Part shown: positions 24,394-41,541 of the stretch, in pieces | Numbering within the stretch: the stretch's first letter is position 1 | How the letters are laid out: each line of letters starts with the position of its first letter | NCBI GenBank assembly: GCA_965203805.1 | Contig: OZ241917.1 | Location: 1,888,001-1,952,000 of the forward strand | Length of the DNA stretch: 64,000 nucleotides | From: Candidatus Latescibacterota bacterium | GTDB taxonomy: Bacteria; Latescibacterota; UBA2968; GCA-2709665 | Direction of reading: 5' to 3' | The notes under the pieces: generated by a model | Told to the model about the DNA's origin: nothing | The model's database searches: none | What the model saw: the letters and a program-made list of their open reading frames with translations, nothing else | Made by a program: the position numbers and the translations under genes

Positions 24394-24657
24394 TTAGCTG
24401 CTCGCCAATTTACCGGACACATAACGAACCATAGAATTCACAGAATCGAAGAGGTCGACGCGTAATTCTTCGTCATCCACCTCAATTCCAAACTCCTGTT
24501 CAAGAGCAAAGATGATTTCTAGTGCGGCAATCGAGTCAACTCCCACGCCCTCGAAAAGCAACTCATCATCGGCAATGTCGTTAGGGTCAATACTCAGGCG
24601 GAGTGACTGGACGATCGCAGATTTTACACGCTGTCCAATGAGCGTCAATTCTTCCAT
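24394..24657 (-). CDS. Acyl carrier protein with intact phosphopantetheine Ser
   Basis: 87 aa, acidic, LFEGVGVDSIAALEIIFALEQEFGIEV. Overlaps the end of the S8 fusion gene. Confidence 0.9.
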   Translation of the reverse strand: MEELTLIGQRVKSAIVQSLRLSIDPNDIADDELLFEGVGVDSIAALEIIFALEQEFGIEVDDEELRVDLFDSVNSMVRYVSGKLASS

Positions 24658-26561
24658 CCGTTTTTCTTGTCCTCGGTAAAGTGATTGATTGCCACATCAA
24701 CCGCCTTTTGAATACCCTCTGCCGACGAAATACATATGGCGGGTAATCCAAAAGACCGTTCCAATTGTCCCAACTTACAGGCTACTTCGGCTTGAGTCAG
24801 CGGTCGCGGTCTTATCGACGTTCGACCATACCTAGCCTGCACTCCCTTTTCAAAGTCTGACGTGGCTAGCAACAATGTGGGCGCGTGACAAAATGCGCGA
24901 ATGCCGTTGACCGTGTCCTGAATATAGTCTTCGGGATCGACACTGTTTACCACCAATATGCAAGCATCAGGCTTCACACCCATTAAAAAAGCAATGGTGG
25001 GCAGCGTCAAAGTATGCTTGTCGCATACGTCATAGGGAACCGTTCCGGATTGGGTACCGACCAAAATGAGATGAGGTCGCGTTTGGTAGCAAATCTCGCG
25101 CATCTTCGCATCGAGAAACGGAATATAGTATTCAGTCGGAATTCGAACAGAGGGTGCGTAGCCCATTGGAAACCCATAATCCATGCCGAATAGCTCGGAA
25201 TGATGTTCAGTCCCAATCTGTGCAATCCGAAACCCTAGTTCTAGCAATCTTCGCCGGAACGCTAATTGAAGAGAAAATTTACCCTGTTGCGAACTCGTAC
25301 CTACTATAGCCAAAACCGGTACATCCACTTCGGGGATCGATGAGCATCCATCGATTGTACGGCTCGCCTCTTCAAACGACAGCTCAGGATAATACAGTCT
25401 CAATCCTTTAGAAGCAGCGACTTCATGCAAGTCACCGTACTCCGCGTGAGGTAGTGCAAGTAGGCTGAACACGTTTACTTCATTATCGAGTGCGACCTGA
25501 ACGCACTTTCTAAGGAAATCGCTCTTACGGATTCGACTCAATTCATCAACGTAACCAAGAATCAGAGTGTCTGCATGCTCCAGACACGCCGACAGCCGGG
25601 ATGTGATCCGGAGACCCTTATTACACAGGCCGATTGCTTCCCCTGCATCGCTGCCGACCAATCCCTTTCCGACAGGATCGGATATGCCCACGACCTGAAA
25701 GCCCAATAGGTCATTCGCACGAACTACGGCGTGCATTTCCTTATTATACGGGTAGAGGCAGGCCTTGCGTATCCACGAGAAGCGATCCTCTGCAGCAGAC
25801 GGGACCTTGATGGATGACGCAGGGTTTGTTACGAGAGGAGGCGCCGTTTCGGATACTGCGTGGTTACTCAGAATCTCACGGATCTGTTGCAAGCAGGCAC
25901 CAGGGTAAGCCTGCCGGATTAGCGCGATCAGACCGGTTATATGTGGCGCAGCGAAACTGGTACCGCCCATCATTATTTCCTTCGGCTCCAACCAACACAC
26001 CCGTTGGGGGTCGCCGCGCGCAATGCACTCAATCGGTCGACCGGCGCGATAATAGTAGTCGTACGGGCCAAGCAACGCACCCGAACCGACACCAATGACG
26101 TCGGCTAACAACGCAGGATACGAGTCACGTCCCTCGTTATTTGCGGATGCTACCAAAAGAGTACCAACGCTGACTGCATTGCGACAGACGTTTGCCAACT
26201 CGTCACGATAAGCGATATCCGTTGTTCCCAAGCTTAGATTTACAATGTCGATTCCGTGCGCAACTGTCCATTCGATGGCCGCTATGAGCAGTCGTGGTTC
26301 CGTCGACAAGGATTCGTCAAAAACTCGGATACTATAAATTGAGGCGTCCATCGCTTTCCGCCGGATAATACCTGCACAGGCCGTTCCGTGACCCACGCAG
26401 TCTTCAAAATCAGAACCATAGATTAAATCCCCTGCTTTACCGACTGATATAGAAACCCCGCCTGTCAACGGACCAACCTTCGGGTGGTCCGGCACGATGC
26501 CACTATCTATAACTGCGACGGCAACGCCGCGTCCGGTCAAGTTTGAAAACGGAAAACTCAT
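24645..26561 (-). CDS. Subtilisin (S8) peptidase fused to a TIGR04066/DUF1611-like P-loop peptide-maturation domain
   Basis: Triad motifs VAVIDSG, GHGTACAG and GTSFAAP; no signal peptide. C-half has LYPYNKE..., GKGLVGSDAG, VPVLAIVGTSSQQGKFSLQL, IAQIGTEHHSELFG and KPDACILVVN. Confidence 0.8.
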   Translation of the reverse strand: MSFPFSNLTGRGVAVAVIDSGIVPDHPKVGPLTGGVSISVGKAGDLIYGSDFEDCVGHGTACAGIIRRKAMDASIYSIRVFDESLSTEPRLLIAAIEWTVAHGIDIVNLSLGTTDIAYRDELANVCRNAVSVGTLLVASANNEGRDSYPALLADVIGVGSGALLGPYDYYYRAGRPIECIARGDPQRVCWLEPKEIMMGGTSFAAPHITGLIALIRQAYPGACLQQIREILSNHAVSETAPPLVTNPASSIKVPSAAEDRFSWIRKACLYPYNKEMHAVVRANDLLGFQVVGISDPVGKGLVGSDAGEAIGLCNKGLRITSRLSACLEHADTLILGYVDELSRIRKSDFLRKCVQVALDNEVNVFSLLALPHAEYGDLHEVAASKGLRLYYPELSFEEASRTIDGCSSIPEVDVPVLAIVGTSSQQGKFSLQLAFRRRLLELGFRIAQIGTEHHSELFGMDYGFPMGYAPSVRIPTEYYIPFLDAKMREICYQTRPHLILVGTQSGTVPYDVCDKHTLTLPTIAFLMGVKPDACILVVNSVDPEDYIQDTVNGIRAFCHAPTLLLATSDFEKGVQARYGRTSIRPRPLTQAEVACKLGQLERSFGLPAICISSAEGIQKAVDVAINHFTEDKKNGWKN

Positions 26562-26672
26562 CGCACCTGTTCACGAAAAAGCTAAAGGAGGACGGCGATA
26601 TTCTCACGAATATCGCATTGCCAGGAAATCGGTTAGAGTTGTTTCCCCCAACTTCTCCTAAAAGCAGAAATA

Positions 26673-27164
26673 CTAACCTCCGTCATCGGTCTCGGTTGCC
26701 ACCGGAAATCCCGCCTCGGCCCACAACGGCCATCCACCGGAAAGCACCCTGACGTTTGCATATGTGAATTCTCGTGCGAGGCGCCGCGCTACATCATAGC
26801 TACTCATACATGTAGCATTTGCACAGTAGACGATAATATCGGTATCCGCCGGATAAGGCTCAAGCACACGATGCAATTCGGAAGTCGAATAGTGATATGA
26901 CAGACGGACAGCACCCGGAATATGCCCACCATTAAATGCCTCAGCCGAGCGAGCATCTACAAATAACGCTGCTCCCCTGTCATATTGGTGCTTAGCTTCA
27001 ACTAAATCCAATGTCCCAATAGCCTGTTCTTCTAAAGTGCCGACATTTGCAAGAGGAAGTCCAGCCACCGTCCGCCGGGCATAAAACCACTCGGTCAATT
27101 GAAGGACGGCACAATACATCACAATTAATATGAATACCAGTGAAACTATAACCCATCGCCACAC
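26673..27164 (-). CDS. Membrane-anchored rhodanese-domain protein
   Basis: N-terminal TM; LFVDARS..F..GHIPGA, IIVYCANATC, VLSGGWPLW. Confidence 0.85.
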   Translation of the reverse strand: MWRWVIVSLVFILIVMYCAVLQLTEWFYARRTVAGLPLANVGTLEEQAIGTLDLVEAKHQYDRGAALFVDARSAEAFNGGHIPGAVRLSYHYSTSELHRVLEPYPADTDIIVYCANATCMSSYDVARRLAREFTYANVRVLSGGWPLWAEAGFPVATETDDGG

Positions 27165-27193
27165 GAATTCGTATCCAATTCGGGACTCTTATT

Positions 27194-27390
27194 AACCTTG
27201 ATTCGAAAGTCCCCGGGGACGTTAATTCGAATATGTGCTTTAAATAAAGGCGATTAGACGGCGGAAACCGAGGATACACCAGGTCACTGGACGTGAAGGG
27301 AAAAAACATCTTTCTTTATGTCGACAACGCCCCGTTTCGGAGGGTTTTATCGCGTCGCCGCGTTGCTGTTTTTTTCGGATTGAGGTTAAT
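27194..27390. repeat. ~200 bp duplicated intergenic module, copy A
   Basis: Collinear with 31203-31402. Shared blocks AACCTTGATTC, AAAGGCGATTAGAC, AGGATACAxCAGGxCACTGxACGTGAA, TCGCGTCGCCGCGTTGC, TCGGATxGAGGxTAAT. Confidence 0.85.
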
Positions 27391-29068
27391 TGCGTGCCGT
27401 TGAAAAAAAACTGTTTAAGAAACTTTGTTTCTGGAGCAACGCCTGAGGTTGACCCTGTTCAACTACGGTGCCGTTATCAATGCAGATCACTTCATCCACA
27501 TTTCGGACGACGTTTAGTCTATGACTGATAACTAGGATTGTCTTTCCAGCAAATATCCGTCGGACATTTCGAAGAATCGTGTGTTCATTTTGGGGATCCA
27601 AAGCTGCGGTCGCTTCGTCCATGATTAGCAACTCCGCAGGATTCAACAGGGCTCTAGCAATTGCAAGCCGTTGTCGTTGCCCACCCGACATCTGTACTCC
27701 TTGCTCTCCTATAGTTTCATGTTGATTCAGATCGTTCAGACCAACCATCTCCATGACGCGGTCGATTTCTGATGAGTTATACCGAGCCGATCCGTACCGG
27801 ATATTCTCGCCGACGCTATCGTGAAATAGGTGGACTCGTTGGCTAACCAAACTGATATTTCGCCTCAAGTCCGACAGTTCGAATTCTCGCATTTGAACAT
27901 TGTCAATGTTGATGCAACCTCGATCGGGAAGATGAAGCCCACAAAGCAAATTGGCAATCGTCGACTTTCCACTTCCACTCGCACCTACCAAAGCATACGA
28001 TTTCCCTTTTGCCATACTAAATTTCACTCCTCGAAGTACTGTCTGACTCTCAAAACTAAAATAAACATCTTGAAGGTCAATCTGCCTCCCGAAGGTAAAC
28101 TGTTTTCGTCCAGCAAAAAAACCAACCTCCGAGGGAATCTGCATAAACTCCAACACGCGACGCATGGAAACCAACCCTCGAACGAGCCCAATGTACATAT
28201 CGTGCAGGTTCCGGACTGGCTGGAAAAGACGTACCGAGTACTGTAGGAAGGCAACTAGAGCGCCAAGCGACATGACGTCTTGCATAACCTGATACGCTCC
28301 GAATCCCATAATGAAGAGGGGGGTTAACGCGGCCAACCCTCCTGACACACTATTCATTGAGGCATAGTACAGGACATTGCGCATGATTAATTCAATTAGA
28401 TCATCCGACATAAAACGAAATCTATCGGTTTCTCGCCTCGAACTATTCGTAAGTTTAATTAATGAGACGTTTTTAAATCGTTCAATTACGTAGCTGGAAA
28501 TGTCGGACCCCTTTTTCTGAATCTTTTCGATATTCCGTCTAATCCTAGGCTGAAAATAGGTCAGATTTAATACAAACAACGGGACGCCGATTACAGTCAG
28601 CAAAAAAAGGGAGGCATTTAGCCACATCAGCAATACGATCAGCCCAATCAAAGTCAGGACACTGTGGATCGAGTGCAACGCGCTGGAAGTCAGCATCGAC
28701 TCAATCACTGCCACATCACTATTGAGCCGGTAGACCAAATCTCCTGTCTTTCGATTGTCAAGTGAGCTTATCGGTAAATCCAACAACTTACGAAACATCC
28801 GCACTCGCATATCCCGAACAATGCGATTACTGCACCACGCGTAGAGGTAGTTTGATGCGAAAGACAAGATCATATTAGTTAACATCAAACCGCAGAGAAG
28901 TCCGATCGCGACTAGAAGAGTGGTATATTGTTTGGCTGGAATTATGTCATCGATAATCGTCTTCGTAATGTACGGTGGAGCTAAGGAAACCGCAGTGGTA
29001 AGGACAAGACAGATCACAACGATTAATCCCTTAAAGCGGTAGGGATTCAGGAATTTGGCAAATCGCAC
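27386..29068 (-). CDS. ABC exporter (fused TMD-NBD, no C39 domain)
   Basis: 6-TM region, Walker A GASGSGKS, signature MSGGQRQR, Walker B LLIMDEATAALD. Confidence 0.92.
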   Translation of the reverse strand: MRFAKFLNPYRFKGLIVVICLVLTTAVSLAPPYITKTIIDDIIPAKQYTTLLVAIGLLCGLMLTNMILSFASNYLYAWCSNRIVRDMRVRMFRKLLDLPISSLDNRKTGDLVYRLNSDVAVIESMLTSSALHSIHSVLTLIGLIVLLMWLNASLFLLTVIGVPLFVLNLTYFQPRIRRNIEKIQKKGSDISSYVIERFKNVSLIKLTNSSRRETDRFRFMSDDLIELIMRNVLYYASMNSVSGGLAALTPLFIMGFGAYQVMQDVMSLGALVAFLQYSVRLFQPVRNLHDMYIGLVRGLVSMRRVLEFMQIPSEVGFFAGRKQFTFGRQIDLQDVYFSFESQTVLRGVKFSMAKGKSYALVGASGSGKSTIANLLCGLHLPDRGCINIDNVQMREFELSDLRRNISLVSQRVHLFHDSVGENIRYGSARYNSSEIDRVMEMVGLNDLNQHETIGEQGVQMSGGQRQRLAIARALLNPAELLIMDEATAALDPQNEHTILRNVRRIFAGKTILVISHRLNVVRNVDEVICIDNGTVVEQGQPQALLQKQSFLNSFFSTARN

Positions 29069-29107
29069 AATTGCGTTTATTGATGAGATGTGTGGCTCCG
29101 CGGAAAA

Positions 29108-29800
29108 CTAAAAGGGATCACTGAGGACACCGCGCCCCTTGATAAACTCCAATAGAGACATACCGTGCATTTCTTTCAAGGGTGAATCAGCGAAACCCTC
29201 AACATTAATCTCAAAAGCAGGCATATGATTGTAAACAAGATCAACGAAGAACAAGGATGTGAATTGCTCCGCTTGGATTAGAGGAAGGTGGCATCGAATT
29301 ATCCTGTTTTCTGGACTGACAAGAAAAACCACAGGAGTTCGCACGAACAACCCATCGGAATCCTCTGGTTCTAGCGGAACACCTAACTGAAACGTCAACC
29401 TGAAGGCTCGCTTAAATTTAGTCAATTCTGATTGATCCCCATTTGAAATGGCGTAAATCGGCATCTCTAAGGAGTCCTTTAGGTTGTCGTGGATGTGTTG
29501 CAGCGCCCGTAATATTAGATTGATGCAAGGTTGGCACGAATTCGGCGAAAACAAAAACACCAAGCCGGTCTTTGATCCTGAAAAGTCAGTACTTACCGTA
29601 TCATTGCCAGTCGTGCGAATTGACAATTTTGGAAATCCGCGACCGACTATCAGATCCTGCCGGTAGGTATTGACCACAAACGTGCGGTAAAACCGTAGAT
29701 CGGTGAGATGTAATCTGAATAACCAGGCGAGGGAGACGACTAGACCAATTAGGAAAAGCAGATTCGATACTACCAATAATCTCGTTATCCGCATAGTCAT
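29108..29800 (-). CDS. Membrane-anchored thioredoxin-like (TlpA/redoxin) protein
   Basis: N-terminal TM, LVFLFSPNSCQPC (CxxC), VRTPVVFLV cis-Pro loop. Confidence 0.7.
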   Translation of the reverse strand: MTMRITRLLVVSNLLFLIGLVVSLAWLFRLHLTDLRFYRTFVVNTYRQDLIVGRGFPKLSIRTTGNDTVSTDFSGSKTGLVFLFSPNSCQPCINLILRALQHIHDNLKDSLEMPIYAISNGDQSELTKFKRAFRLTFQLGVPLEPEDSDGLFVRTPVVFLVSPENRIIRCHLPLIQAEQFTSLFFVDLVYNHMPAFEINVEGFADSPLKEMHGMSLLEFIKGRGVLSDPF

Positions 29801-31447: not shown

Positions 31448-32671
31448 CTAGTTATTTGCACCAAAGTCAAGCGCATAGACCGCCACATTGCCATTGGAAT
31501 TTTCCGACTCTGCTGCCGACGGCTCACTCCATACATACAACTGATCCCGCGAAGATGCTATACTATTCCACGGGAGCGATATAACTTCGGATTCGAGGTG
31601 CTCCTTTGCTGACCTACTAAAGTCATAGACTCTGACGGCCTCTTCTGTGTCGAGGTCGTAAATCGACCAGTTGGTAATACTTGCGACGGTCGTGTCCTCG
31701 GTCGTGCCAGGGTTTATGTGCGAAACTATCAAAAAACGACCATGGACGATTGTCATGCTACGTACAGTTGTCATTTTCAATCCTCTCATATCTTCACGAC
31801 TCCCTTGTTCAATTCCATGATACCTTGTCGGCAACGGTACATATCCTTTCGGACGACGACCAAATCGCCTGATGGTTTTCCCAGTCTCGGCGTCGATTTC
31901 TCTAACCATGTAGTCGTTTGGTCCCAGGAAATACAGCCTATTCCGTACCACGCTGTAGCATAGATGCGCAAAGGCTTTCATGCGATATGAGATAAACCTC
32001 TGGGAATTGGTAGAAAGAGCCACGCGATACACAACATCCCATCTGGACGGTTCAAGGCGTCGCAATTCCATTATCTTCATCGGGTTTACCATAAGTACGA
32101 AGACCTCGCCCAATCTACCCGTTAACACCCTGGTGGCATGTAGTAACCGTGTCGTGTCCACATGCTTCCCGGCTCTGTCATATCGGACAATCTGGCCATA
32201 AGTTGAATCCAACAGGTACACCATACCCTGCGGGTCTATTGACATATAACGAGCACTGCCATATTCGCCTGGTCCGCGACCCTGACGACCGAAAGACTGG
32301 ATATAGCGTCCGTCCGAAAGGTCAAACTCATGTGCTCTTTCACCAATCCGGTCGGTAAGCAGTAGAGTGTTATCCCGTGTCACACCTATCCAGTTTGCCT
32401 CACCAATCCCAGGTGTTTTTTCGTTAAAGTCCAGACTAAATTGGCGCTTCAAATCAAGACCGATTTCGCCGATATATTCCAACTTCGTTTCGTGAATGGA
32501 CTCTTCGTTGGCCTCGTGAGGCGAAGACTTCGAATACGTCTCCTTCGACTGGTCCGGCACTTGTGCAACCGCCCGGGCGTTTCCGGAAACAAGAACGACC
32601 GTAAGTAAAAAAACAAAAAGACTGAACATTCTTTCCGTCCAATGACGTCCACCTAACGTGCTCTTCTTCAT
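31448..32671 (-). CDS. Secreted 6-bladed (NHL-like) beta-propeller protein
   Basis: Signal peptide; GRYIQSFGRQGRGPGEY, MSIDPQGMVYLLD, IVRYDRAGKHV. AAAGGAG RBS. Confidence 0.8.
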   Translation of the reverse strand: MKKSTLGGRHWTERMFSLFVFLLTVVLVSGNARAVAQVPDQSKETYSKSSPHEANEESIHETKLEYIGEIGLDLKRQFSLDFNEKTPGIGEANWIGVTRDNTLLLTDRIGERAHEFDLSDGRYIQSFGRQGRGPGEYGSARYMSIDPQGMVYLLDSTYGQIVRYDRAGKHVDTTRLLHATRVLTGRLGEVFVLMVNPMKIMELRRLEPSRWDVVYRVALSTNSQRFISYRMKAFAHLCYSVVRNRLYFLGPNDYMVREIDAETGKTIRRFGRRPKGYVPLPTRYHGIEQGSREDMRGLKMTTVRSMTIVHGRFLIVSHINPGTTEDTTVASITNWSIYDLDTEEAVRVYDFSRSAKEHLESEVISLPWNSIASSRDQLYVWSEPSAAESENSNGNVAVYALDFGANN

Positions 32672-32759
32672 CGTGAACTCCTTTCGAATTTGTGCTGTGT
32701 CATTGTGTAATGGTTATTTGCGTAACCATATTATAATACAATGACTTGTGTATGGAACC

Positions 32760-33087
32760 TACCTTTTCTACGAATTATTCAGGCTTAGTATGCATGACGT
32801 CGCCGATACCCCAGCGACACAATTGGATTCTCACGTTCACCTTTTCTCCAACGGCGGCGGCCTTCCACTTTCAAAACACCGTTCGCCTCACGCATTACCT
32901 CTCTCGAGGCCTGCTAAACCTTCACTCGCGTTACGGACTGTATACTTGCAAGTTGCCATGCGACCTATACACCGGGGGTTTAAGACAACTCGATGCTTTC
33001 CTGCCCGCTTTACTTGCTACCGACGGCGGCAACATTTGGCTGGTGCGACTCTCACCCACAAGAGTTCCGCGCCTTTTCACGGCGCAT
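32760..33087 (-). mobile_element. Group II intron 5' (domain I) remnant, no RT ORF
   Basis: Minus strand reads (A)TGCGCCGTGAAAAGGCG...GGTAGCAA...CCGTAACGCGAGTGAA..AGCAGGCCTCGA...GGAAGGCCG...GGGGTA..GGCGAC, as recalled for bacterial group II intron 5' ends. The first G is mutated. Confidence 0.7.
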
Positions 33088-33158
33088 TGTTGTCGAATTA
33101 GGACTAATCAAACAATAATGTACGAGGAGACTCGGTTGATCGAGTTCTATAAGTAGCC

Positions 33159-34631
33159 TCACTCGGCATCACCTTGATTAACCAATCTTAGATTGTACCT
33201 CTCCTGCAACAGTTTCTTGTCCGTGTTTTGAATTTCTATACACATTTCCATGGCGAGTTCATAGCTATAACGGATCTGGTCGCACGAGACAGGGTTCGGA
33301 TTTATCGGGTCCCCAGTTGCAGTCCGGGCATCATATATACACCCCCCCCCACACAGGTTTCTTGCCCAGCAACGCCGGCAGTCGGAACGGGAATCGACAT
33401 GGAACGAATCTTTGAATCCATCCTGGACATTTTCGTCAAGACCAGAGAATACGTCGCCCATCTTAAACTCCGGCCGGTCGGCAAGACTTGAGCAAAAATA
33501 GATGTCGCCATCTACATCCACGGCCAGAAATGTCCTGCCGCCTTGACAGCCATAACAAGATTTCGCGCGAGTCATCAATCGTTCGATATAACGGTCGAAA
33601 AATCCTCTCTCGTGCGATCCTTCCAGAATTCTCTCCGTCTCCTGGCTGCTTAAACCGCGAAGTCTACGCTTTATTTCAGGCAGATGCTCCTCGCGAAGTG
33701 CATAAGGTTCTTCAGGTGCAGCAACGACAGGAGCCACTCTAACACGACATGCGCCAAGTTGCCTCAAATCATCAGCAATGGACTCCCTGTCCAGATTGTA
33801 CGAAGTCATTGTTGCGCGTACCGATACCTTATCCGGTGACTCTTTCGTCAATTTCAACAGGTTCTCGGCCACCACATTGTACGTTTCACTGCCATCTCGA
33901 AACTTCCGCAGTCGGTTTTGGTCTCTCGGGTTGCCATCGACACTAACCTGAATGTGAATTTCCTCATCAATCAGAAACTGTAAGATTTCATCCGAAATTA
34001 GAGTGCCATTTGTTGCGATTCCAAAAGAGACCTGAACCCCAACCCGATGGGCATACTCACGGGCAAAGGGAATGATATCTCGAATTAACTCGAAGTTCAG
34101 GAGCGGTTCCCCACCGAAAAAGTCTATCTGACACCTGCCGAACGAGCGAGCTTCACTCAGTGCCCATCGTACAGCCTGCCTTGCAACATGCGGCGTCATA
34201 AATCCCGGTACCCTTCCGTAGTCGCCGCCATGTGCGAAGCAATAGGTACATTTGACGTTACAGGCGTGCGAAACGTGTAACGTGATATAAAAATGACTCG
34301 CACCGGGCCCGGACTCTGGCAATCCGCAGATCCCTTGATCCGGCCCCTGTGAATCTGAATAAAGTTTCAGCGAGGCATCGTATATGAGCTGGGCTTCGGC
34401 AAGGACCTCAACTGCCTTTAACACGTCCTCGCCAGGAAATTCATCGGCCAATTTAAGAACGACTTCCTGGTCCGTTAGTCCGTCGCAAATCTTGAGGATC
34501 GACTCATAGAGCGGATCCAGTTCAAAGAACAGTCCCGTGTAAACCTGAAACGAAAAAGCACGTTTCGACTGGTATGTTCTGAAGAGATGCATATCAGATT
34601 TTGCGATTCGTACCACTTCCTCTGCCCCCAT
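33159..34631 (-). CDS. Radical SAM/SPASM peptide maturase with N-terminal RRE (CteB/PapB/QhpD-like)
   Basis: CNVKCTYC, FFGGEPLL, ATNGT, VSVDG; SPASM CQGG...DGDIYFC...CRRCWARNLCGGGC...C. N-terminal HLF...FQVYTGLFFELD + helices resembles an RRE. Start is probably 34631 or slightly downstream, not 34766. Confidence 0.92.
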   Translation of the reverse strand: MGAEEVVRIAKSDMHLFRTYQSKRAFSFQVYTGLFFELDPLYESILKICDGLTDQEVVLKLADEFPGEDVLKAVEVLAEAQLIYDASLKLYSDSQGPDQGICGLPESGPGASHFYITLHVSHACNVKCTYCFAHGGDYGRVPGFMTPHVARQAVRWALSEARSFGRCQIDFFGGEPLLNFELIRDIIPFAREYAHRVGVQVSFGIATNGTLISDEILQFLIDEEIHIQVSVDGNPRDQNRLRKFRDGSETYNVVAENLLKLTKESPDKVSVRATMTSYNLDRESIADDLRQLGACRVRVAPVVAAPEEPYALREEHLPEIKRRLRGLSSQETERILEGSHERGFFDRYIERLMTRAKSCYGCQGGRTFLAVDVDGDIYFCSSLADRPEFKMGDVFSGLDENVQDGFKDSFHVDSRSDCRRCWARNLCGGGCIYDARTATGDPINPNPVSCDQIRYSYELAMEMCIEIQNTDKKLLQERYNLRLVNQGDAE

Positions 34632-34657
34632 TACCCAACAAACAACCAACCGACATA

Positions 34658-34876
34658 CTATTGGGCTGACTGCTTTTCCTGTGGAGTGAGTCCATTCTGT
34701 GATTTTTCGATTGACGCCACGATTGTCATTGGAGGGGGCAGAATAGGGAACCACGGCCATACGCATACCAACGCTTCAATAGGAGTCGTCGATCCAAAGC
34801 ATCCGTGAATTCTTCCCCTATTGTCGGAAACACCGTTGATCAAGTACAGGGAAGGTTCGGGATTACTATGTGCCAT
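34658..34876 (-). CDS. Putative RiPP precursor 1 (72 aa; PapA/SCIFF-like leader)
   Basis: RBS AAGGAGGA then ATG at 34876. Sequence MAHSNPEPSLYLINGVSDNRGRIHG-CFGSTTPIEALVCVWPWFPILPPPMTIVASIEKSQNGLTPQEKQSAQ. Directly upstream of the rSAM gene. Confidence 0.7.
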   Translation of the reverse strand: MAHSNPEPSLYLINGVSDNRGRIHGCFGSTTPIEALVCVWPWFPILPPPMTIVASIEKSQNGLTPQEKQSAQ

Positions 34877-34971
34877 TATCGTCCTCCTTGCCCGTTCAGC
34901 TTTGCGCGTCTCTATACTACAATGGAGATCAAACACGTGGCGCCAATTCCATCATGCAATTAGTAGGATAT

Positions 34972-34987
34972 TGCAAACCACGTACCC
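34972..34987 (-). promoter_or_regulatory. Candidate sigma54 (-24/-12) promoter
   Basis: Minus strand GGGTACGTGGTTTGCA versus consensus TGGCACG-N4-TTGCW (GG-N10-GC spacing exact). About 95 bp upstream of precursor 1, with an AT-rich tract further upstream and a sigma54 activator gene next door. Confidence 0.65.
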
Positions 34988-35252
34988 GAAAAACAAAAAA
35001 CGCTTGTGTGAGACCACAAGCGAAATAATTACAATGATTTATTTATTTGTTTTTCTTTTTTATTCCCGACGAGAGTCCGTTCTTAAATTGTATTCATTGT
35101 ATACAGAACTCTTCCTATGTGAAAGGTACGCGTAAATTCAAACGAACAAAACCTTAAAATACAATACTTTAAATTCTGTCCAACGCCGTCTACACTACTT
35201 TAGGATCGATGCGCAAGCTATCTACGCTGATGGCGAGGCTTCATCGTGCGAC

Positions 35253-38200
35253 TCAACGCAGACCATAACGCGTCATCATCTTCTGAAGTCCATTTCGGCT
35301 GAGACCCAAATGAGCGGCAGTATGAGAAATGTTGCCCTTGCATTTGTCAAGTGCCGCGGCTATCATCCTTTTTTCAAGGGCAGCCACCTCCGATTTTAGA
35401 TGTCCTCGCGAACCTTGTTCGGCGTCTTGACGATGTTCAATCCTCTTCGAGAATAGATCGACGGAAACCTTCTTTCCTTCTTCAACCAACGCAACCGCGC
35501 GTCTTATCTCATTCTGCAATTCACGGACATTGCCCGGCCACGCGTGATCCATTAATCCCCGCATTGCCCCCACTGTAAGGCCCAGTACTTCCTTTCCCTG
35601 CTCCGAAGAAACACGCTTCAGTATATGCTCTGACAACGAAGGGATGTCCTCAATACGGTCACGCAGTGGAGGCATTTCAATCTGTAAAACGCGCAGCCGG
35701 TAATACAAGTCCTCCCGAAAAAGACCGGCACGCACGTCCGCTTCCAGGTCGCGATTCGTCGCTGCAATCACCCGAACGTCTACGTGGCGAACATTAGTCT
35801 CTCCTACTCGCTGTGTCTCCCCATCCTGCAGTACGCGCAACAGGCTTATCTGCAATTGCGAAGAGGCATCCCCGATTTCATCCAGAAACACGGAACCGCC
35901 CTCCGCGGAGGCGAATAGTCCCTTGCGGTCGGATGAAGCCCCGGTGAATGAGCCTCTTTTGTGACCGAACAGCTCGCTCTGAAGCAGTTCGTGGGTAAGC
36001 GCCCCGCAATTTGCGGAGAGAAAGGGTTTCGCCTTGCGGTTGCTCCGGGTATGGATAGCCCGGGCGGCCAGTTCCTTCCCCGTTCCCGTCTCACCCTGTA
36101 TAAGCACAGTCATGTCGCTTTCAGCCGCCACGTCGACCAGTTTGAACACTTCCTGCATCACCTGACTCTGTCCGATAAGTTCTCCCATTCGGTAGGTGCC
36201 CTCGTATTTTTCCTGGAAAAAAAGTGCCTGCTCCTGGATCCGGGAGAACATCCGGGCGTTGACAACCGCAATGGAGGCCAAATTCGCAAATGCCGCAAAC
36301 AAGGCTGTGTCTTCTTCGCGAAACAAATCTTCTAGCTTTCTATGGTCCAAATACAGCGCGCCGATGACACCCGATTCCGCATGCCGCAGTGGAACGCAAA
36401 GCACCGATCGGATGCCGTAGGCCGAAACGCTGGCCCTTTTTCTGAATCGATCGTCAACGCGGGCATCCAGACTCAATACGGGCTCGCACTGCTGCATCGA
36501 CCACCTGATTATTCCCTCGCTGATCTCCCTTGCTGCTAAATCATCCAGATTATACTTACGCGCAACCTTGACGCGACCGGCTGCCCCATCCTCGATAGCA
36601 ATCAAAACACGTTCGGCATGGCTCACCTTCTTCAGTCGGTCCAGAATTCGATCAAGTAGCACATTCAGGTCCAAGACCGACGTCAAGTCTTCGGATACTT
36701 CATAAAGGGTCTGCAGATGCTCTTGGGAAAGCGCCGTAACCTTCGCCTCTGGTGTTATAGTCATCGCAGTTTCCTCAATAACCAGGTTTAGGAGATCCGC
36801 TGCCTTTCGGGCCAGATAACGCAGATTCAAGCGTTCGGCAGCCTGAAGGGCGTTTTCCAGGTGCCGCCGGGCATCGGCATGACGCCGTCGCTCAACATAA
36901 TAACTGCCCGCTACAACCAACAGATTTACCTGTTCAAAACCGTCAGGCGAACCCTGTGTGTCCGATGCATGATCAATCAGGGAATCGACTTCTTCATGAC
37001 GGTCGGCCGCAACAAGCGATTTTGCCTTTGCAGTCCATGCAAGGGCGCGGACATTCCCGCCGTACTCTACACCCGGCCAAGCCCGTTCGGCCCAGGCCAG
37101 CGCCTCTTCGACACGGCCGGTTTGCGCCAATGTCTCGGCAAGCAACGCATGAGCCCGGCACATTTCATCGGGACTTTCGGCACCCGACAGAAGCCCCACC
37201 GCGGCACTCGCGTGGGCCTCTGCAGCCTCGGTATCTCCACGTTCCAGGACAATCCTGCCCAAATACACGAGTGATCCTGCTTCCGCAAGTCTCGAACCGC
37301 GTTTGGCCCAAAAATCCTTAAGTTCTAAGAAAATCTCCTCGGCCCGATCGAAATTTCCCAGCCGATTCTCTGCACGTCCCAAAAGGAAAAGACAGTTATG
37401 GCGATAAGTGCGATCGCCGTTATTCTCCAGTAGATTCAATGAAGAATCCAGGAGCTTTTTCGATCTGTCATTAAGATAGGTAAACTGCGCCGCAAACCCG
37501 AGATGCATCAAAGCGCGTGCTTCGTTGATAGACCCTCCCATTTCGCGACATTTCGCGGCGGCTAATTGACTATATCTCGCAGCAACCTCTTTTTTATTCA
37601 GCGCTACGTAGAGATTAGACAACAAACCCAAAACCCTAAGTTCATTCTCGGCCTCGCCCTGATTCCGCAAGAGTTCCAGCGCTTCTAACAACATCGACTC
37701 AGCTCTTTGGTAGTCCCCGCCATTCACGCAGGTAATTCCCAAAATCCTCAACACATTCGCCCTTTGCGCGGGCATTTCGACGGACGCCCACTGCAGGGCC
37801 CCTTCCATCTCCCGGCGGGCGTCCTCGTACCTGTCGCATCCGCATAGCGCTTCGGAGTAAGCGCAGAGAAAGTCGAGATGCATCACGGACCCCCTTGCAA
37901 ATCCGACGGGCGCATCGGGCGAGAGCGCGCCTTTTTTGAGAACAGTTCGGAACTGTTTGAGTGCGTACGAGAAATATTGCATCCCCAATGCCTTGCGGCC
38001 GGATTCTGTCACGTACAGCGCCATTTTTTCAAGGTCGTTCGACCTCGAAAAGTGATAGGCCAATTCATCCAGTGACTCAGCGGCGCCGCAATCCAACCGT
38101 TTCTCTAAGGCCCTGCCTGCCTCCTGGTGAAGAAACGTACGTTGGCTTTCGGAAATGCCTTCATAAACGGCCCGCCGAATCAGTCCATGTGAGAACCGAT

Positions 38201-40139
38201 AACGTCCACTCGGTTCTTGCAAATCTTCCAAATGGCCCAGGTTGACGTTCGTATCCAGCTTCTCTAGTAAATCCAGTTCATCCTTGCACCAGACCTCTGA
38301 AATCAGCTCGAACGAAAACGCACCGCGAAAGATCGAGGCATATTCCAGCACCTGCCGTTGGGACGACTGCAGCCGTCCCAGACGCAACTCGATTGCCTGC
38401 ATAATGCCCGTGGGCATCGGCCATTCGGTTGACTTCGGCCAATTCCAATTGCCTGCCGAATCCTTCCAGATTGAGCCGTCCGCAATAGCTCCTCGAACCA
38501 TTTCTACGATAAACAGTGGATTTCCCCCAGTTTCCAGGAAGACCCTCCGAGCTTCTTCCTCGGAGACCACCTGCTCTCCAAGCAGGGACGCAGCCAGACA
38601 CCCAGTTTCGTCCATACGGAGAGGCTGGAGATGAAAATGTACAATTCGAGTTCCATCTGACCCATTTGTCAGGTCGTCGATTCCCGGGGGTAGCGGATCT
38701 TCGTCCACAGTGCGGCAGGCGAGCCCGAAGATGAGAGGTGCGGGATCAGGATTTCTCCTCGTAAAGTCAAGGAACCGCAGGGTCAAGTCATCGGCCCACT
38801 GCAGGTCTTCAATGCATACAAGGGTGGGCGCTTCCCGGCTCAGATCGACGAGCAGTTCCGACAAAGTCTCCATCGCCGGGTACGGATCCGGCTGATCGGC
38901 GGGCACCGGACGTTCGATTTGCGTTAGAACCCGCCTGACGGATGCTTCGAGGTCCGAACCTCTAATGTCGGGCAGTTCCGCCATATCCCTCAGCATTTCA
39001 AGAAATGGACCAAAGGCTTGGCCGCCGCTCTCATAACAACGTCCTGTTTGTACGCGCATCCCGTTAACGCGGGCGTCGGCCTTAAATTCTTCGAGAACTT
39101 GCGTCTTCCCGATGCCAGCACTCCCGCTAACGAGAATCATGTGCCCAATACACTCGCGAGTATCCTGCAGGATCTTCCACAGAGCCTTCATCTCTTGTTG
39201 CCGACCCTGGAACTGGGGTTGCAAAAATGGAACGTCCGTGGTACCCAAGACAGGCAGCATTGTGACGGTAGCTTCGTCGCAGTATTCATGGAATCCGCTT
39301 GCCTCGTTAATCGTCAAATCATAGAGCAAGCTCCCAACCGAACTGTACCGGTCAATCGGCTCCTTCTTGAGAAGCTTCATTACTGACTCTTCGATTCCCG
39401 AGGAATTTTCGCCGGCAACAAGGTGCGGAGGACAAGGTAATTCTTGCAAATGCTTAGTCAATATTGTCGCCGGATCTGTTCCCGTGAACGGTGGATTCCC
39501 GGAGAGAATCTCGTAAAGAATGACTCCCAATGAATAAAGGTCGGATCGCTGGTCAACTCCCCGGCCCCGAATCTGTTCGGGAGACATGTACTCCAAGGTC
39601 CCCGTAGCTGCTTCCGGAGGCTGCAGGCGTTCATCCGCAGCATCTTTAAATCGCGCCAGACCCAAGTCCAGAATCGTAACCTCGGGTTGGCCGTCATTTT
39701 CTGAAATAATGATATTGGAGGGTTTAAGATCTTTGTGTATTACACCAAGTTCATGGATGTATGCAAGCCCCTCACCAGTCTGCCGGACAAACGGAACGAG
39801 CCACGCGGATTTTAGTTTCCCGCGGTATTCTGCGCTTGAAATCAGGTCAGACAGTGGATGACCCTGGACATAATCCATCGAAAAATACGGTCTCCCGTCG
39901 TGAAGGCCCCACCTGCGTGAAACTACAATTCGAGGATGTCGGATCCGAGACAGGATATCAAACTCCCTCAGAAATCGCCTTTGCGCCACTTCCCCAGAGA
40001 TATTCAACACCTTAAGCGCTACAATGGAGTCTTCCCGGACGTCCCGCGCGCGATATACGATTCCTATACCTCCGTTTCCGACCGTATCCAGGATCTTGTA
40101 TCGTCCGTCGACAACCATTCCAGTCTCTATTTCGGCCAT
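35253..40139 (-). CDS. Hybrid Ser/Thr kinase - AAA ATPase - TPR - GAF - sigma54 activator - Fis HTH
   Basis: Kinase [32 protein letters not shown]; second P-loop GSAGIGKT with CIEDLQWAD; TPRs; GAF ([16 protein letters not shown]); [44 protein letters not shown]; C-terminal HTH. Confidence 0.93.
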
Positions 40140-40647
40140 AGTAGTTAACCTGAGGAAAAATGACTCGCGTCTAGCGAACCTGGTTCGTTCACGTTCCGTC
40201 TAAAAACAAACCGGAGTTTGATCGCGGATACCTTCGTCCCTATCGTCGAGTATAGCGATCTGTGTGGCTCGACGAGCCATTAAAGAAGCAACGTTCAAGC
40301 CCTCCGACCCCGCTACCGAATTGGTTGGGGGATGGTTGGTCTCACCGCTGACAGCCGAGGGCTGAAGGCATTCCTACAGGAAACTCCATTGAAACTCGCC
40401 GAGGGCGGTTACCCCGCAGTCTGATTTGCAAGCCTGGATCATTACGGGTTCCATCGGTCCGCCGGATCCTCCCACAATTCCCGAAAGTCATTCATTCCGA
40501 GGGGTACCAGTTCACACGACGAAACCGATGGCTGTAAGCAGTTACACCCCGTCCTACCAACCGTTACGTTTTGGACTGTTCCTCGTGCAGGATTTCCTGC
40601 AGCCTGCGGTAGAGTGAAATTCTCCGTTCAGCGTCAAGGGTACGGCG

Positions 40648-41541
40648 TTATCGATCAAGAATCCGGTCCGCATCTTCATTCTCGAAACACGGATAATTCC
40701 TGCTGTCTTTGACCTGCGACGAATGCCAGCTTGCCCTCAGATCGAGGGGAACGGCGGAAAGGCTTCCTCCACCTGTAAATAACGCCTCGAACTCCTGCGT
40801 TCGCAGCCGATGCAGGTAAACGGAATATTCGATTTCTCGTACCTTGCAATCAACTCCCACATCCGCCAGTTCGTCCTGCAACACTACGCCGATGTACTTG
40901 CTGACTTGAGAACCGACCGGTACCAGGAATTCGAACCTGAATACGGTTTTGACGCCGTCCACAGCCCGATCCAGAACGCCGTCGCCGTAGGTATCGAACG
41001 AGCCAGCCGCCTGGAGCAATTCTGCGGCCCGATCGCGGTCGTATTCGAGAGATTCCAAGCCGGCGTGAAATTCCGGACAGGACAAATGAATGGGCCCGTC
41101 GATGTTAGCGCCAAGTCAATGGATCAGATCTCGAATAATGCTCTTGCGCGGCGTCAGATGAGCCATCGATCGGCGGACCCGTTTATCGCGAAATATCGGT
41201 TGGGCAATGTTCCATGCGATGTAATTGATACCGCTTGCGTATCGGATGACCTTGAAGCTGAACAAGATGTCCGCCGGGGTCACCGACCTGCCATCCGAAA
41301 AACGGGCGTCTTCGCGAATGTCGAACGTATTCGAAAGCTTGTCAGCGGACGCCACGGAATAAACGGCCGCCAGTTTTCCCTTGAATTGGTATGGCGGCAT
41401 GTTCTCCATTAATATCAAATTCTCGAACATGTGCTCTAGGATTCTGTGTGAACCATAGTCCATATTTCCATACGGATTGAGCGTTGCCGGCTCCGAACAA
41501 CGCGTGGAGAACCAGCTAGTCTCCATAAACAGGGCTTTCAT
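40648..41541 (-). pseudogene. Peptide ABC substrate-binding protein (family 5), fragmented
   Basis: EPATLNP, FSDGRSVTPADILFSF, FRDKRVRRSMA and AAELLQAAG fall in different frames with an internal deletion. Confidence 0.75.

What the first reader, a model, noticed from the sequence alone, without database searches (positions are those of the whole stretch)
34658..34876. Hidden precursor 1 with a ranthipeptide-like leader but a non-standard core
Seen: a strong RBS and a 72-aa ORF masked by the over-extended rSAM ORF call. The leader SLYLINGVSDNRGRIHGC resembles, from memory, freyrasin PapA (INVIAGVKEPIRAYGC). The core has only two Cys, no CX3D/E motif, a WPW (W-x-W as in darobactin), a Pro run and a polar tail. 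Inference: the crosslink may be Cys-Thr/Ser or Trp-based, with the tail acting as a follower.
Basis: partly seen in the sequence, partly recalled or inferred. Interest (0 to 1): 0.82.

Follow-up and report, generated by a model that had tools for sequence, protein, structure and literature searches.

The report
Hidden one-cysteine peptide precursor gene
A small unannotated gene in front of a radical-SAM enzyme in a Latescibacterota genome is real and founds an undescribed family of one-cysteine, proline-rich peptides, each cassette switched on by its own sigma-54 regulator.

Summary
34658-34876 (-) is a 72-codon ORF with AAGGAGG 6 nt before its ATG, partly hidden by an over-extended radical-SAM ORF. 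It is a real gene. A homologous small ORF sits at the same place in 34 of 36 assessable related loci. Pooled dN/dS is 0.34 in the larger clade. The rSAM homology starts downstream of the peptide's stop.

The enzyme is a CteB/SCIFF-type rSAM/SPASM maturase, below every curated family cut-off. The peptide matches no known precursor family. The leader motif LxLINGxxDxxGxI is conserved and modelled on the enzyme's N-terminal domain (ipSAE 0.79, best control 0.00).

Only Cys38 is invariant (46 of 46). Cys26 and the second Trp of "WPW" are not conserved.

The cassette is kinase-STAND-TPR-GAF-sigma54 activator, terminator, sigma54-type promoter, precursor, rSAM. It was found in 2 of 49 Latescibacterota genera searched.

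Most likely it is a single-thioether, ranthipeptide-like product. The acceptor residue and the function are unknown. It is a new variant of a known kind, of moderate interest.

The parts
34658..34876 (-). Precursor peptide gene, 72 aa (stop TAG 34660-34658). Leader motif L10-x-L-I-N14-G15-x-x-D18-x-x-G21-x-I23; invariant Cys38; clade-A core C38-x-W-P-x-F-P-x-L-P-P-P49; variable tail 50-72.
34883..34889 (-). Ribosome-binding site AAGGAGG, 6 nt before the ATG; also present in the related loci
34972..34987 (-). Sigma54-type promoter element GGGTACGTGGTTTGCA (GG-N10-GC), 111 nt before the ATG
   Evidence: The window match alone is not above chance (2 found, 5.5 expected). It is conserved in position in 6 of 6 clade-A and 20 of 20 tested clade-B loci.
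34991..35022 (-). Intrinsic terminator (stem CGCTTGTG..CACAAGCG plus T-run) that ends the regulator gene's transcript just before the promoter
35089..35105 (-). Palindrome TGTATACAATGAATACA, candidate binding site (UAS) of the activator; a like palindrome is at the same place in the other clade-A loci
   Evidence: inference as to function
35253..40139 (-). 1628-aa regulator: Ser/Thr kinase (14-265), STAND AAA_16 (309-470), TPR (793-1107), GAF (1157-1292), sigma54-interaction AAA+ (1321-1488), Fis-type HTH (1586-1625)
33159..34631 (-). Radical SAM/SPASM maturase with N-terminal RRE-like domain. True start at ATG 34631, GTG 34616 or ATG 34592, all downstream of the precursor's stop; the ATG at 34766 is an over-extension.

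Best explanation
34658-34876 (-) encodes the precursor peptide of a ribosomally made, radical-SAM-modified peptide. It is the first gene of a two-gene operon with a CteB/SCIFF-type rSAM/SPASM maturase. The operon is read from a sigma54-type promoter, which is controlled by the regulator gene directly upstream (Ser/Thr kinase-STAND-TPR-GAF-sigma54 activator). Proposed mechanism (inferred by homology to CteB/CteA and PapB/PapA): residues about 8-25 (LxLINGxxDxxGxI) form a beta-strand or hairpin that docks on beta3/alpha3 of the enzyme's N-terminal RRE-like domain. The invariant Cys38 reaches the SPASM auxiliary cluster. A 5'-deoxyadenosyl radical abstracts an H atom from a nearby residue, and one thioether ring forms. 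The acceptor is not identified. Candidates are Glu34 (an acidic residue lies 3-4 residues before the Cys in 35 of 46 sequences), Thr51 (it aligns with the first position of clade B's Asp run), or a residue of the conserved Pro-rich segment. Shown here: the gene, its family, the enzyme type, the cassette and the regulatory layout. Inferred: binding, thioether chemistry, sigma54 control.
For: Gene reality: the homologous small ORF with AAGGAGG-type RBS is present in 34 of 36 assessable loci. Alignment of 46 sequences has M1, N14, C38 and P49 invariant, and L10, G15, D18, G21, I23, P44 and P47 at 90% or more. Pooled dN/dS is 0.34 over 496 clade-B pairs. There is no indel against the orthologue or in three spanning contigs. 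A profile search of 1.84 billion representatives finds 20 hits, 19 of them proteins of 47-121 aa. Enzyme: best NCBIfam hits are SCIFF maturase 247.5 bits, nif11 rSAM 243.9, PapB 238.7 and QhpD 228.2. CteB (5wgg) scores E 5.5e-58 over residues 20-440. CX3CX2C and the SPASM cysteines are invariant in 36 sequences. The family is a clade next to SCIFF maturases. rSAM start: homology starts at about residue 59-67 of the long ORF. All 27 clade-B loci scanned have a start codon 8 codons before MHLF, and the long extension occurs only in the window and L001. Binding model: ipSAE 0.79 (three runs 0.79, 0.81, 0.78), best of 3 controls 0.00. That mark was reached by 58 of 80 solved complexes and 2 of 110 mismatched pairs. 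The runs agree in at least 58% of contacts and partner pLDDT is at least 53. Peptide residues 10-15 lie on enzyme residues 20-25, and residues 35-43 lie near 348-351, 367, 414 and 417-418, where the invariant SPASM cysteines lie. A conserved leader Asn was proposed as needed for PapA-RRE binding (PMC9413430, passages); here N14 is invariant. Regulation: the regulator gene is found upstream in 37 of 40 loci, and the 3 misses have 668 nt or less of upstream DNA. A terminator followed by TGGCACG-N4-TTGCA-like element lies 58-82 nt before the ATG in 20 of 20 clade-B loci tested (of 32) and 70-123 nt in 6 of 6 clade-A loci. rpoN is present in the genome at 422.7 bits, above its cut-off.
Against: There is no expression data: no RNA run was listed. 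The sigma54 match in the window alone is not above chance (2 matches, 5.5 expected). The enzyme stays below every curated family cut-off, so the chemistry is not settled by homology. No residue type known as a ranthipeptide acceptor (Asp, Glu, Thr, Asn) is invariant near Cys38 across the family. Between the window and its orthologue the peptide gene shows no third-position bias (differences 9/13/10 by codon position) and dN/dS 0.76. Taken alone, that pair looks weakly constrained. The complex model may pass from memory of the solved CteB-CteA leader complex. It used my own alignments and small molecules, unlike the calibration. No protease or exporter is conserved with the cassette.
Confidence: 0.72

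Rival explanations
1. The gene is a real substrate of the rSAM, but the chemistry is not a Cys thioether. It could be a carbon-carbon or ether crosslink on the aromatic/Pro-rich segment (W40, F43), or another change at the Cys itself.
For: The enzyme is below all curated cut-offs. W40, P41 and the LPPP run are invariant and F43 is 13 of 14 in clade A. No canonical acceptor is invariant. SPASM enzymes are known for C-C and ether links (PMC8326336, passages).
Against: Scores to cyclophane, darobactin and dynobactin enzymes are far lower than to thioether enzymes: YhhB 75 bits, DarW 59, DynA 97 against 228-248. The only invariant core side chain shared by both clades is Cys (46 of 46); Trp at the W40 column is 11 of 32 in clade B. 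The model puts residues 35-43 beside the SPASM cysteines.
Confidence: 0.15
2. The small protein is not modified. It would be a partner, chaperone or regulatory upstream ORF of the rSAM, whose true substrate lies elsewhere.
For: No protease or exporter is conserved with the cassette. The tail and N-terminus are poorly conserved.
Against: The architecture is that of precursor plus maturase, as in SCIFF loci. The invariant Cys lies behind a conserved leader-like motif. Peptides diversify (mean pairwise identity 62%) while enzymes stay at 90%, as is typical of RiPP precursors. In the model the leader lies on the RRE-like domain.
Confidence: 0.06
3. The ORF is spurious: the rSAM starts at 34766 and the frame is open by chance.
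For: The long ORF exists and is also open in the orthologue.
Against: The extension is open in only 2 of 32 frames scanned at that length; 27 of the 30 others stop within 20 codons. Profile alignments start at residue 59-67. The peptide frame is conserved across two clades with dN/dS 0.34.
Confidence: 0.02

Closest known systems
SCIFF / thermocellin system (CteA precursor, CteB maturase; ranthipeptides of Clostridia)
   Same: Two-gene precursor-plus-rSAM/SPASM layout with no dedicated protease or exporter. The enzyme aligns to CteB over RRE, rSAM core and SPASM (E 5.5e-58). The nearest named public homologues are SCIFF maturases. The leader is modelled as a strand on the RRE-like domain, as in the CteB-CteA structure (PMC8326336 passages). 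Many clade-B peptides carry G-G-C before the core, as SCIFF peptides do.
   Different: 28-36% identity only; 247.5 bits against a cut-off of 425; a separate clade. The peptide has one invariant Cys, not six, a longer LxLING leader and a Pro-rich core. No hit to the SCIFF precursor model. Phylum Latescibacterota, sigma54 control.
Freyrasin system (PapA/PapB)
   Same: Thioether-type rSAM/SPASM with RRE; a conserved Asn in the leader (PMC9413430 passages).
   Different: PapB model 238.7 bits against a cut-off of 340. There are no CX3D repeats.
NxxcA/NxxcB (streptococcal single-thioether ranthipeptide)
   Same: A single Cys and a single ring. The acceptor lies 3 residues before the Cys (PMC8326336 passages). 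Here an acidic residue lies 3-4 residues before Cys38 in 35 of 46 sequences.
   Different: No Asn at that place. I did not compare the enzymes, because no NxxcB sequence came from a tool.
QhpD/QhpC (quinohemoprotein amine dehydrogenase maturation)
   Same: Cys-Asp/Glu thioether enzyme of the same branch (228.2 bits, aligned from profile position 9).
   Different: Below the cut-off of 453. The substrate there is an enzyme subunit, and no qhp genes are nearby.

Membership tests
Ranthipeptide-type RiPP system (radical non-alpha thioether peptides) | rSAM/SPASM maturase of the CteB/PapB/QhpD branch with CX3CX2C and SPASM cysteines | tested here: met
   Best hits are all thioether enzymes, and the cysteines are invariant in 36 sequences.
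Ranthipeptide-type RiPP system (radical non-alpha thioether peptides) | N-terminal RiPP recognition element that binds the leader | tested here: inconclusive
   The alignment to CteB starts at residue 20. Precomputed PF05402 (PqqD) hits are recorded on a minority of the listed homologues. The AF2 model has poor overall confidence (pLDDT 56), but residues 1-66 show a beta3-alpha3 topology at pLDDT 62-85. The complex model passes at 0.79 against 0.00 but may be memory of 5wgg.
Ranthipeptide-type RiPP system (radical non-alpha thioether peptides) | Adjacent precursor with donor Cys | tested here: met
   Cys38 is invariant in 46 of 46 sequences.
Ranthipeptide-type RiPP system (radical non-alpha thioether peptides) | Acceptor Asp/Glu/Thr/Asn at a short fixed distance (CX3D, C-x-T, NxxC) | tested here: not met
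   No such residue is invariant. E or D lies at -3/-4 in 35 of 46. The first acid after the Cys is at +19 in the window, and T51 is at +13.
Ranthipeptide-type RiPP system (radical non-alpha thioether peptides) | S-C(beta/gamma) thioether shown chemically | not testable with these tools
   Needs MS/MS and NMR.
SCIFF (TIGR03973 precursor / TIGR03974 maturase) | Six Cys in about 45 residues; maturase above the curated cut-off | tested here: not met
   29 of 46 peptides have exactly one Cys. No precursor model hit in 0 of 40. Maturase 247.5 bits, below 425.
Freyrasin PapA/PapB (NF047865) | PapB equivalog score; CX3D repeats | tested here: not met
   238.7 bits, below 340. No CX3D.
Darobactin/dynobactin-type (W-x-W core, DarE/DynA-like rSAM) | Conserved aromatic crosslink motif and cognate enzyme | tested here: not met
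   W42 is Trp in 3 of 14 clade-A sequences; the W40 column is Trp in 11 of 32 in clade B. DynA 97 bits and DarW 59 bits, far below cut-offs of 450 and 650.
Sigma54-dependent operon with cognate enhancer-binding protein | GG-N10-GC promoter element, adjacent activator with sigma54-interaction domain, rpoN in the genome | tested here: met
   The window's match alone is not above chance. Transcription itself is not tested.

The most novel reading that the evidence does not exclude
Each cassette may be a private peptide circuit. The one-cysteine, proline-rich modified peptide would be the ligand of the STAND/TPR sensor of its own sigma54 activator, giving an autoinducing loop that diversifies like pherotypes. 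In addition, or instead, the thioether acceptor may lie in the invariant Pro-rich segment, which would be a crosslink type not yet described. Hints: every cassette carries its own regulator with its own palindromes. There are 2-3 cassettes per genome. Peptides diversify while enzymes stay alike. The peptide gene is an isolated island of divergence: 85.4% nt identity between a 96.8% rSAM and a 95.5% promoter region.
Probability: 0.15. Interest if true: 0.8.

Novelty: new variant of a known kind. Interest (0 to 1): 0.55.

Why it matters
Genome-mining papers already list 'ranthipeptide' clusters in sponge-associated Latescibacterota, but only as a cluster type (PMC12993501 and PMC11832590, passages). 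My six literature searches found no description of the peptides. This work gives the substrate family, its invariant residues, the correct gene starts and a complete regulatory layout. That makes a co-expression and mass-spectrometry experiment directly possible. A single invariant Cys with no invariant canonical acceptor is a simple system for asking what this enzyme branch can link. The fixed pairing with a giant kinase-STAND-sigma54 regulator suggests a signalling role, as has been proposed for SCIFF peptides (review table in PMC8326336).

Tried and rejected
1. Expression: no RNA holder was listed for 33100-35300, so there is no evidence on expression either way. The contigs of four runs only showed that relatives carry the stretch without indels in the ORF. 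The table of differences was cut (162 rows not shown), so I could not map hot spots from it.

2. Protein language-model atlas: no usable hit.

3. Earlier notes of this scan: nothing by place or by sequence.

4. AF2 model of the rSAM: mean pLDDT 56, too poor for a fold search, so I ran none.

5. Pherotype idea tested on the orthologue. The regulator's sensor half is diverged (82-89% nt) while its output half is 98-99%. But the diverged block runs on into the DNA beyond the regulator (76%). It is therefore a recombination tract, not sensor-specific divergence, and I dropped it as support.

6. SRCR likeness: one 642-aa SRCR-repeat protein hit the peptide profile. hhalign gives 34% probability over 30 columns, and Pfam SRCR hits 0 of 40 peptides. 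I treat it as a chance or convergent beta-hairpin motif.

7. PapA leader likeness: I could not test it. The paper I read gives the sequence only in figures, and sequence from memory is not usable.

8. Downstream genes as cluster members (propeller 31448-32671, AhpC-like, ABC exporter, rhodanese, S8 peptidase): apart from a weak 27%-identity hit of the ABC exporter in L006, they recur only in the near-identical orthologue. They are also separated from the rSAM by a repeat-filled 487-nt gap. I did not count them as part of the system.

9. Supplements of the rSAM compendium paper (PMC10288494, seen in a search listing only) could list this family. They were not available.

Full report
**What is there.** On the minus strand an ATG at 34876 opens a 72-codon frame that ends with TAG at 34660-34658. 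AAGGAGG lies 6 nt before the ATG. It has two Cys (26, 38), WPW (40-42), PPP (47-49) and a polar tail. The longest mechanical ORF of the next gene (33159-34766) overlaps it by 109 nt in another frame. An ORF of this size is common by chance here: 136 ORFs of at least 30 aa overlap 12 kb. So I tested the claim by conservation.

**The neighbour and its true start.** The next gene is a radical SAM/SPASM enzyme.
- Its best NCBIfam hits are SCIFF maturase (247.5 bits, cut-off 425), nif11-peptide rSAM (243.9, cut-off 518.7), PapB (238.7, cut-off 340) and QhpD (228.2, cut-off 453). None reaches its cut-off.
- The nearest solved structure is CteB (5wgg), E 5.5e-58 over residues 20-440, counted from the MHLF start.
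- Profile alignments begin at residues 59-67 of the long ORF.
- In all 27 clade-B loci scanned a start codon lies 8 codons before the conserved (M/I/L)HLF. The window has GTG there (34616), ATG at -13 (34631) and ATG at 0 (34592).
- The 61-codon upstream extension is open only in the window and its near-identical orthologue. Of the 30 other loci, 27 stop within 20 codons.
- All three candidate starts lie after the peptide's stop, so the two genes do not overlap.

**Relatives.**
- A scan of species-representative genomes gave 57 loci. Of these, 37 (44-96% identity) are in Latescibacterota MAG records, one of them labelled Poribacteria. The other 20 (25-35% identity) are mostly Firmicutes.
- Of the 37 loci, 36 have upstream DNA. 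34 carry a homologous small ORF just before the rSAM, nearly always behind AAGGAGG. L002 uses TTG. L012 has a truncated copy. L032 has an unrelated one-Cys ORF.
- The window's own genome has a second cassette, with the rSAM 61% identical.
- Public gene callers have called 72-aa homologues (85, 72 and 60% identity) without names.
- A profile of 40 sequences searched against 1.84 billion representatives finds 20 proteins at E of 0.001 or better. 19 of them are 47-121 aa.
- Among 168 Latescibacterota species genomes the profile matches in 20. These fall in only 2 of 49 genera: the window's genus (4 of 15 including the window) and a genus of another family (16 of 21). The counts are 1-3 matches per genome, and matches are not copy numbers.

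**The peptide family.**
- In 46 aligned sequences M1, N14, C38 and P49 are invariant. L10, G15, D18, G21, I23, P44 and P47 reach 90% or more.
- Clade A holds 14 sequences, the window included. N14, G21, P32, C38, W40, P41, L46, P47, P48 and P49 are invariant and F43 is present in 13 of 14. The core is C-x-W-P-x-F-P-x-L-P-P-P, followed by a variable, non-acidic tail.
- Clade B holds 32 sequences and reads M(A/T)TRRKLTLINGTIDxEGxI..Y...SFE..GC......VPPLPFP, followed by an Asp run and WDDFD.
- Cys26 is Cys in 7 of 14 clade-A sequences and Tyr or Leu in clade B. W42 is Trp in 3 of 14. 29 of 46 peptides have exactly one Cys.
- The frame is under purifying selection in clade B: pooled dN/dS is 0.34 over 496 non-independent pairs.
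- Peptides diverge faster than enzymes. In clade B the mean pairwise identity is 62% for peptides and 90% for enzymes.
- Against the orthologue, the peptide gene is an isolated island of divergence: 85.4% nt identity, no gaps, dN/dS 0.76. The core (residues 31-50) gives 0.26 and the tail about 3 on 10 changes. It sits between an rSAM at 96.8% and a promoter region at 95.5%.
- No member hits any precursor family of NCBIfam or Pfam (0 of 40).
- The nearest Firmicutes rSAM homologues sit behind classic six-Cys SCIFF peptides (15 of 19 loci scanned). Their leaders look different.

**The cassette and its control.**
- The gene upstream, on the same strand, is a 1628-aa regulator. Its domains are Ser/Thr kinase, STAND ATPase, TPR, GAF, sigma54-interaction AAA+ and a Fis-type HTH.
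- A homologue lies upstream in 37 of 40 loci. The three misses have 668 nt or less of upstream DNA.
- Between regulator and peptide, clade-B loci share three palindromes whose sequence differs from cassette to cassette. After them come an intrinsic terminator, TTGGCACGGATCTTGCA, and then AAGGAGG and ATG. The promoter element is found in 20 of 20 loci tested (of 32), 58-82 nt before the ATG.
- All 6 clade-A loci show the same order: palindrome, terminator, TGGTACG-N4-TTGC(A/G), 70-123 nt before the start.
- In the window these elements are at 35089-35105, 35022-34991 and 34987-34972.
- The window's promoter match alone is not above chance: 2 matches, 5.5 expected. Its weight comes from the conserved position.
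- rpoN is present in the genome.
- Genes after the rSAM are not shared among cassettes. The exception is a 302-aa ORF in about half of the clade-B loci.

**How it most likely works.** By homology, the leader docks on the enzyme's N-terminal RRE-like domain and the Cys is joined to a nearby carbon.
- A complex model passed. The ipSAE was 0.79 in the median run (0.79, 0.81, 0.78), and the best of 3 controls was 0.00.
- That mark was reached by 58 of 80 solved complexes and 2 of 110 mismatched pairs. The runs agree in at least 58% of contacts, and partner pLDDT is at least 53.
- Peptide residues 10-15 lie on enzyme residues 20-25 with the lowest errors. N14 also touches residues 339-340 and 451. 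Residues 35-43 lie near 348-351, 367, 414 and 417-418, where the invariant SPASM cysteines lie.
- Caveats: a like complex (CteB with the CteA leader) is solved, so the pass may show likeness only. The job also used my own alignments and riding ligands.
- In CteB the open iron of one auxiliary cluster binds a substrate Cys. Known acceptors are Thr, Asp, Glu and Asn (PMC8326336, passages).
- Here no such residue is invariant. An acidic residue lies 3-4 residues before the Cys in 35 of 46 sequences; in the window it is E34. T51 aligns with the first position of clade B's Asp run, where Asp is 26 of 32; the next column, aligned with I52, is Asp in 32 of 32.
- The acceptor therefore stays open, and an alpha-carbon or Pro-segment link is not excluded.

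**Comparison and novelty.** The system works like SCIFF/thermocellin and belongs to the same enzyme branch. It fails the membership tests of SCIFF, freyrasin and darobactin-type families.
- Public names for the enzyme's relatives are only 'radical SAM protein' or 'SPASM domain-containing protein'.
- Papers on sponge Latescibacterota list 'ranthipeptide' clusters as a type only (PMC12993501 and PMC11832590, passages).
- My six searches found no description of this peptide family or of its sigma54 cassette. Supplements were closed.
- I rate it a new variant of a known kind.

**Verdict.** The gene is real (about 0.9). A single thioether on Cys38 is likely (about 0.6). The acceptor and the function are unknown.

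Noticed in passing
window 32672-33158: The 487-nt gap after the rSAM is built of repeats. There is a group II intron 5' piece (RF02003, 32926-33061 minus strand, 41.9 bits, below the gathering score of 49) with about 6-7 further copies of 73-76% identity in the genome. There is also an 85-95-nt repeat with about 10 copies of 82-88% identity.
   Followed up: partly
window 35253-41255 against L067: Mosaic divergence from the orthologous genome. The regulator's HTH, AAA+, GAF and linker parts are 98.3-98.7% identical in nt. From about 36800 onward the TPR (88.9%), STAND (86.1%), kinase (82.5%) and the DNA beyond (76%) are diverged. A recombination breakpoint seems to lie inside the gene.
   Followed up: partly
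L003-L048, about 190-320 nt before the peptide ATG: There are three palindromes per cassette (types GTGCAT-N8-ATGCAC, GTGTAAAC..GTTTACAC, GTGTAT..ATACAC). They differ between paralogous cassettes, as if each activator had its own binding site.
   Followed up: no
P0017 (642 aa, from the profile search): A protein that looks, by recalled knowledge of the motif (no tool named the domain), like an SRCR-repeat protein matched the peptide profile through LRLVNGATQYEGRIEIY...CDDSWDDSDA. This resembles the leader and the acidic tail of clade B. hhalign probability is 34%, and no Pfam SRCR hit occurs in 0 of 40 peptides. Probably chance or a shared hairpin pattern.
   Followed up: partly
L005 5423-6328 and 14 other clade-B loci: A conserved 302-aa ORF (79-85% identity) directly follows the rSAM in about half of the clade-B cassettes. 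It has no Pfam hit. It shows weak class-I methyltransferase-like motifs (recognised by eye, and one NCBIfam hit at E 0.02). It is absent from clade-A loci.
   Followed up: partly
L032 1055-1222: A more distant rSAM relative (44% identity) is preceded by a different 55-aa ORF, also with one Cys. About 30 further unnamed homologues of 39-47% identity exist. One-Cys substrates may be general for a wider enzyme group.
   Followed up: no
L008 2656-2814 and L026 3684-3842: In two clade-B loci an extra conserved 52-aa ORF lies between the precursor and the rSAM.
   Followed up: no
window 40648-41541: Two adjacent minus-strand ORFs (145 and 141 aa) each match parts of the SBP_bac_5 solute-binding family. 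This looks like a split or decayed gene.
   Followed up: no
window 24645-29800: Downstream on the same strand lie an AhpC/TSA-like protein, an ABC exporter (ABC_membrane plus ABC_tran), a rhodanese protein, and a subtilase S8 fused to a DUF1611 P-loop domain. They are not linked to other cassettes, so membership in the peptide system is open.
   Followed up: partly
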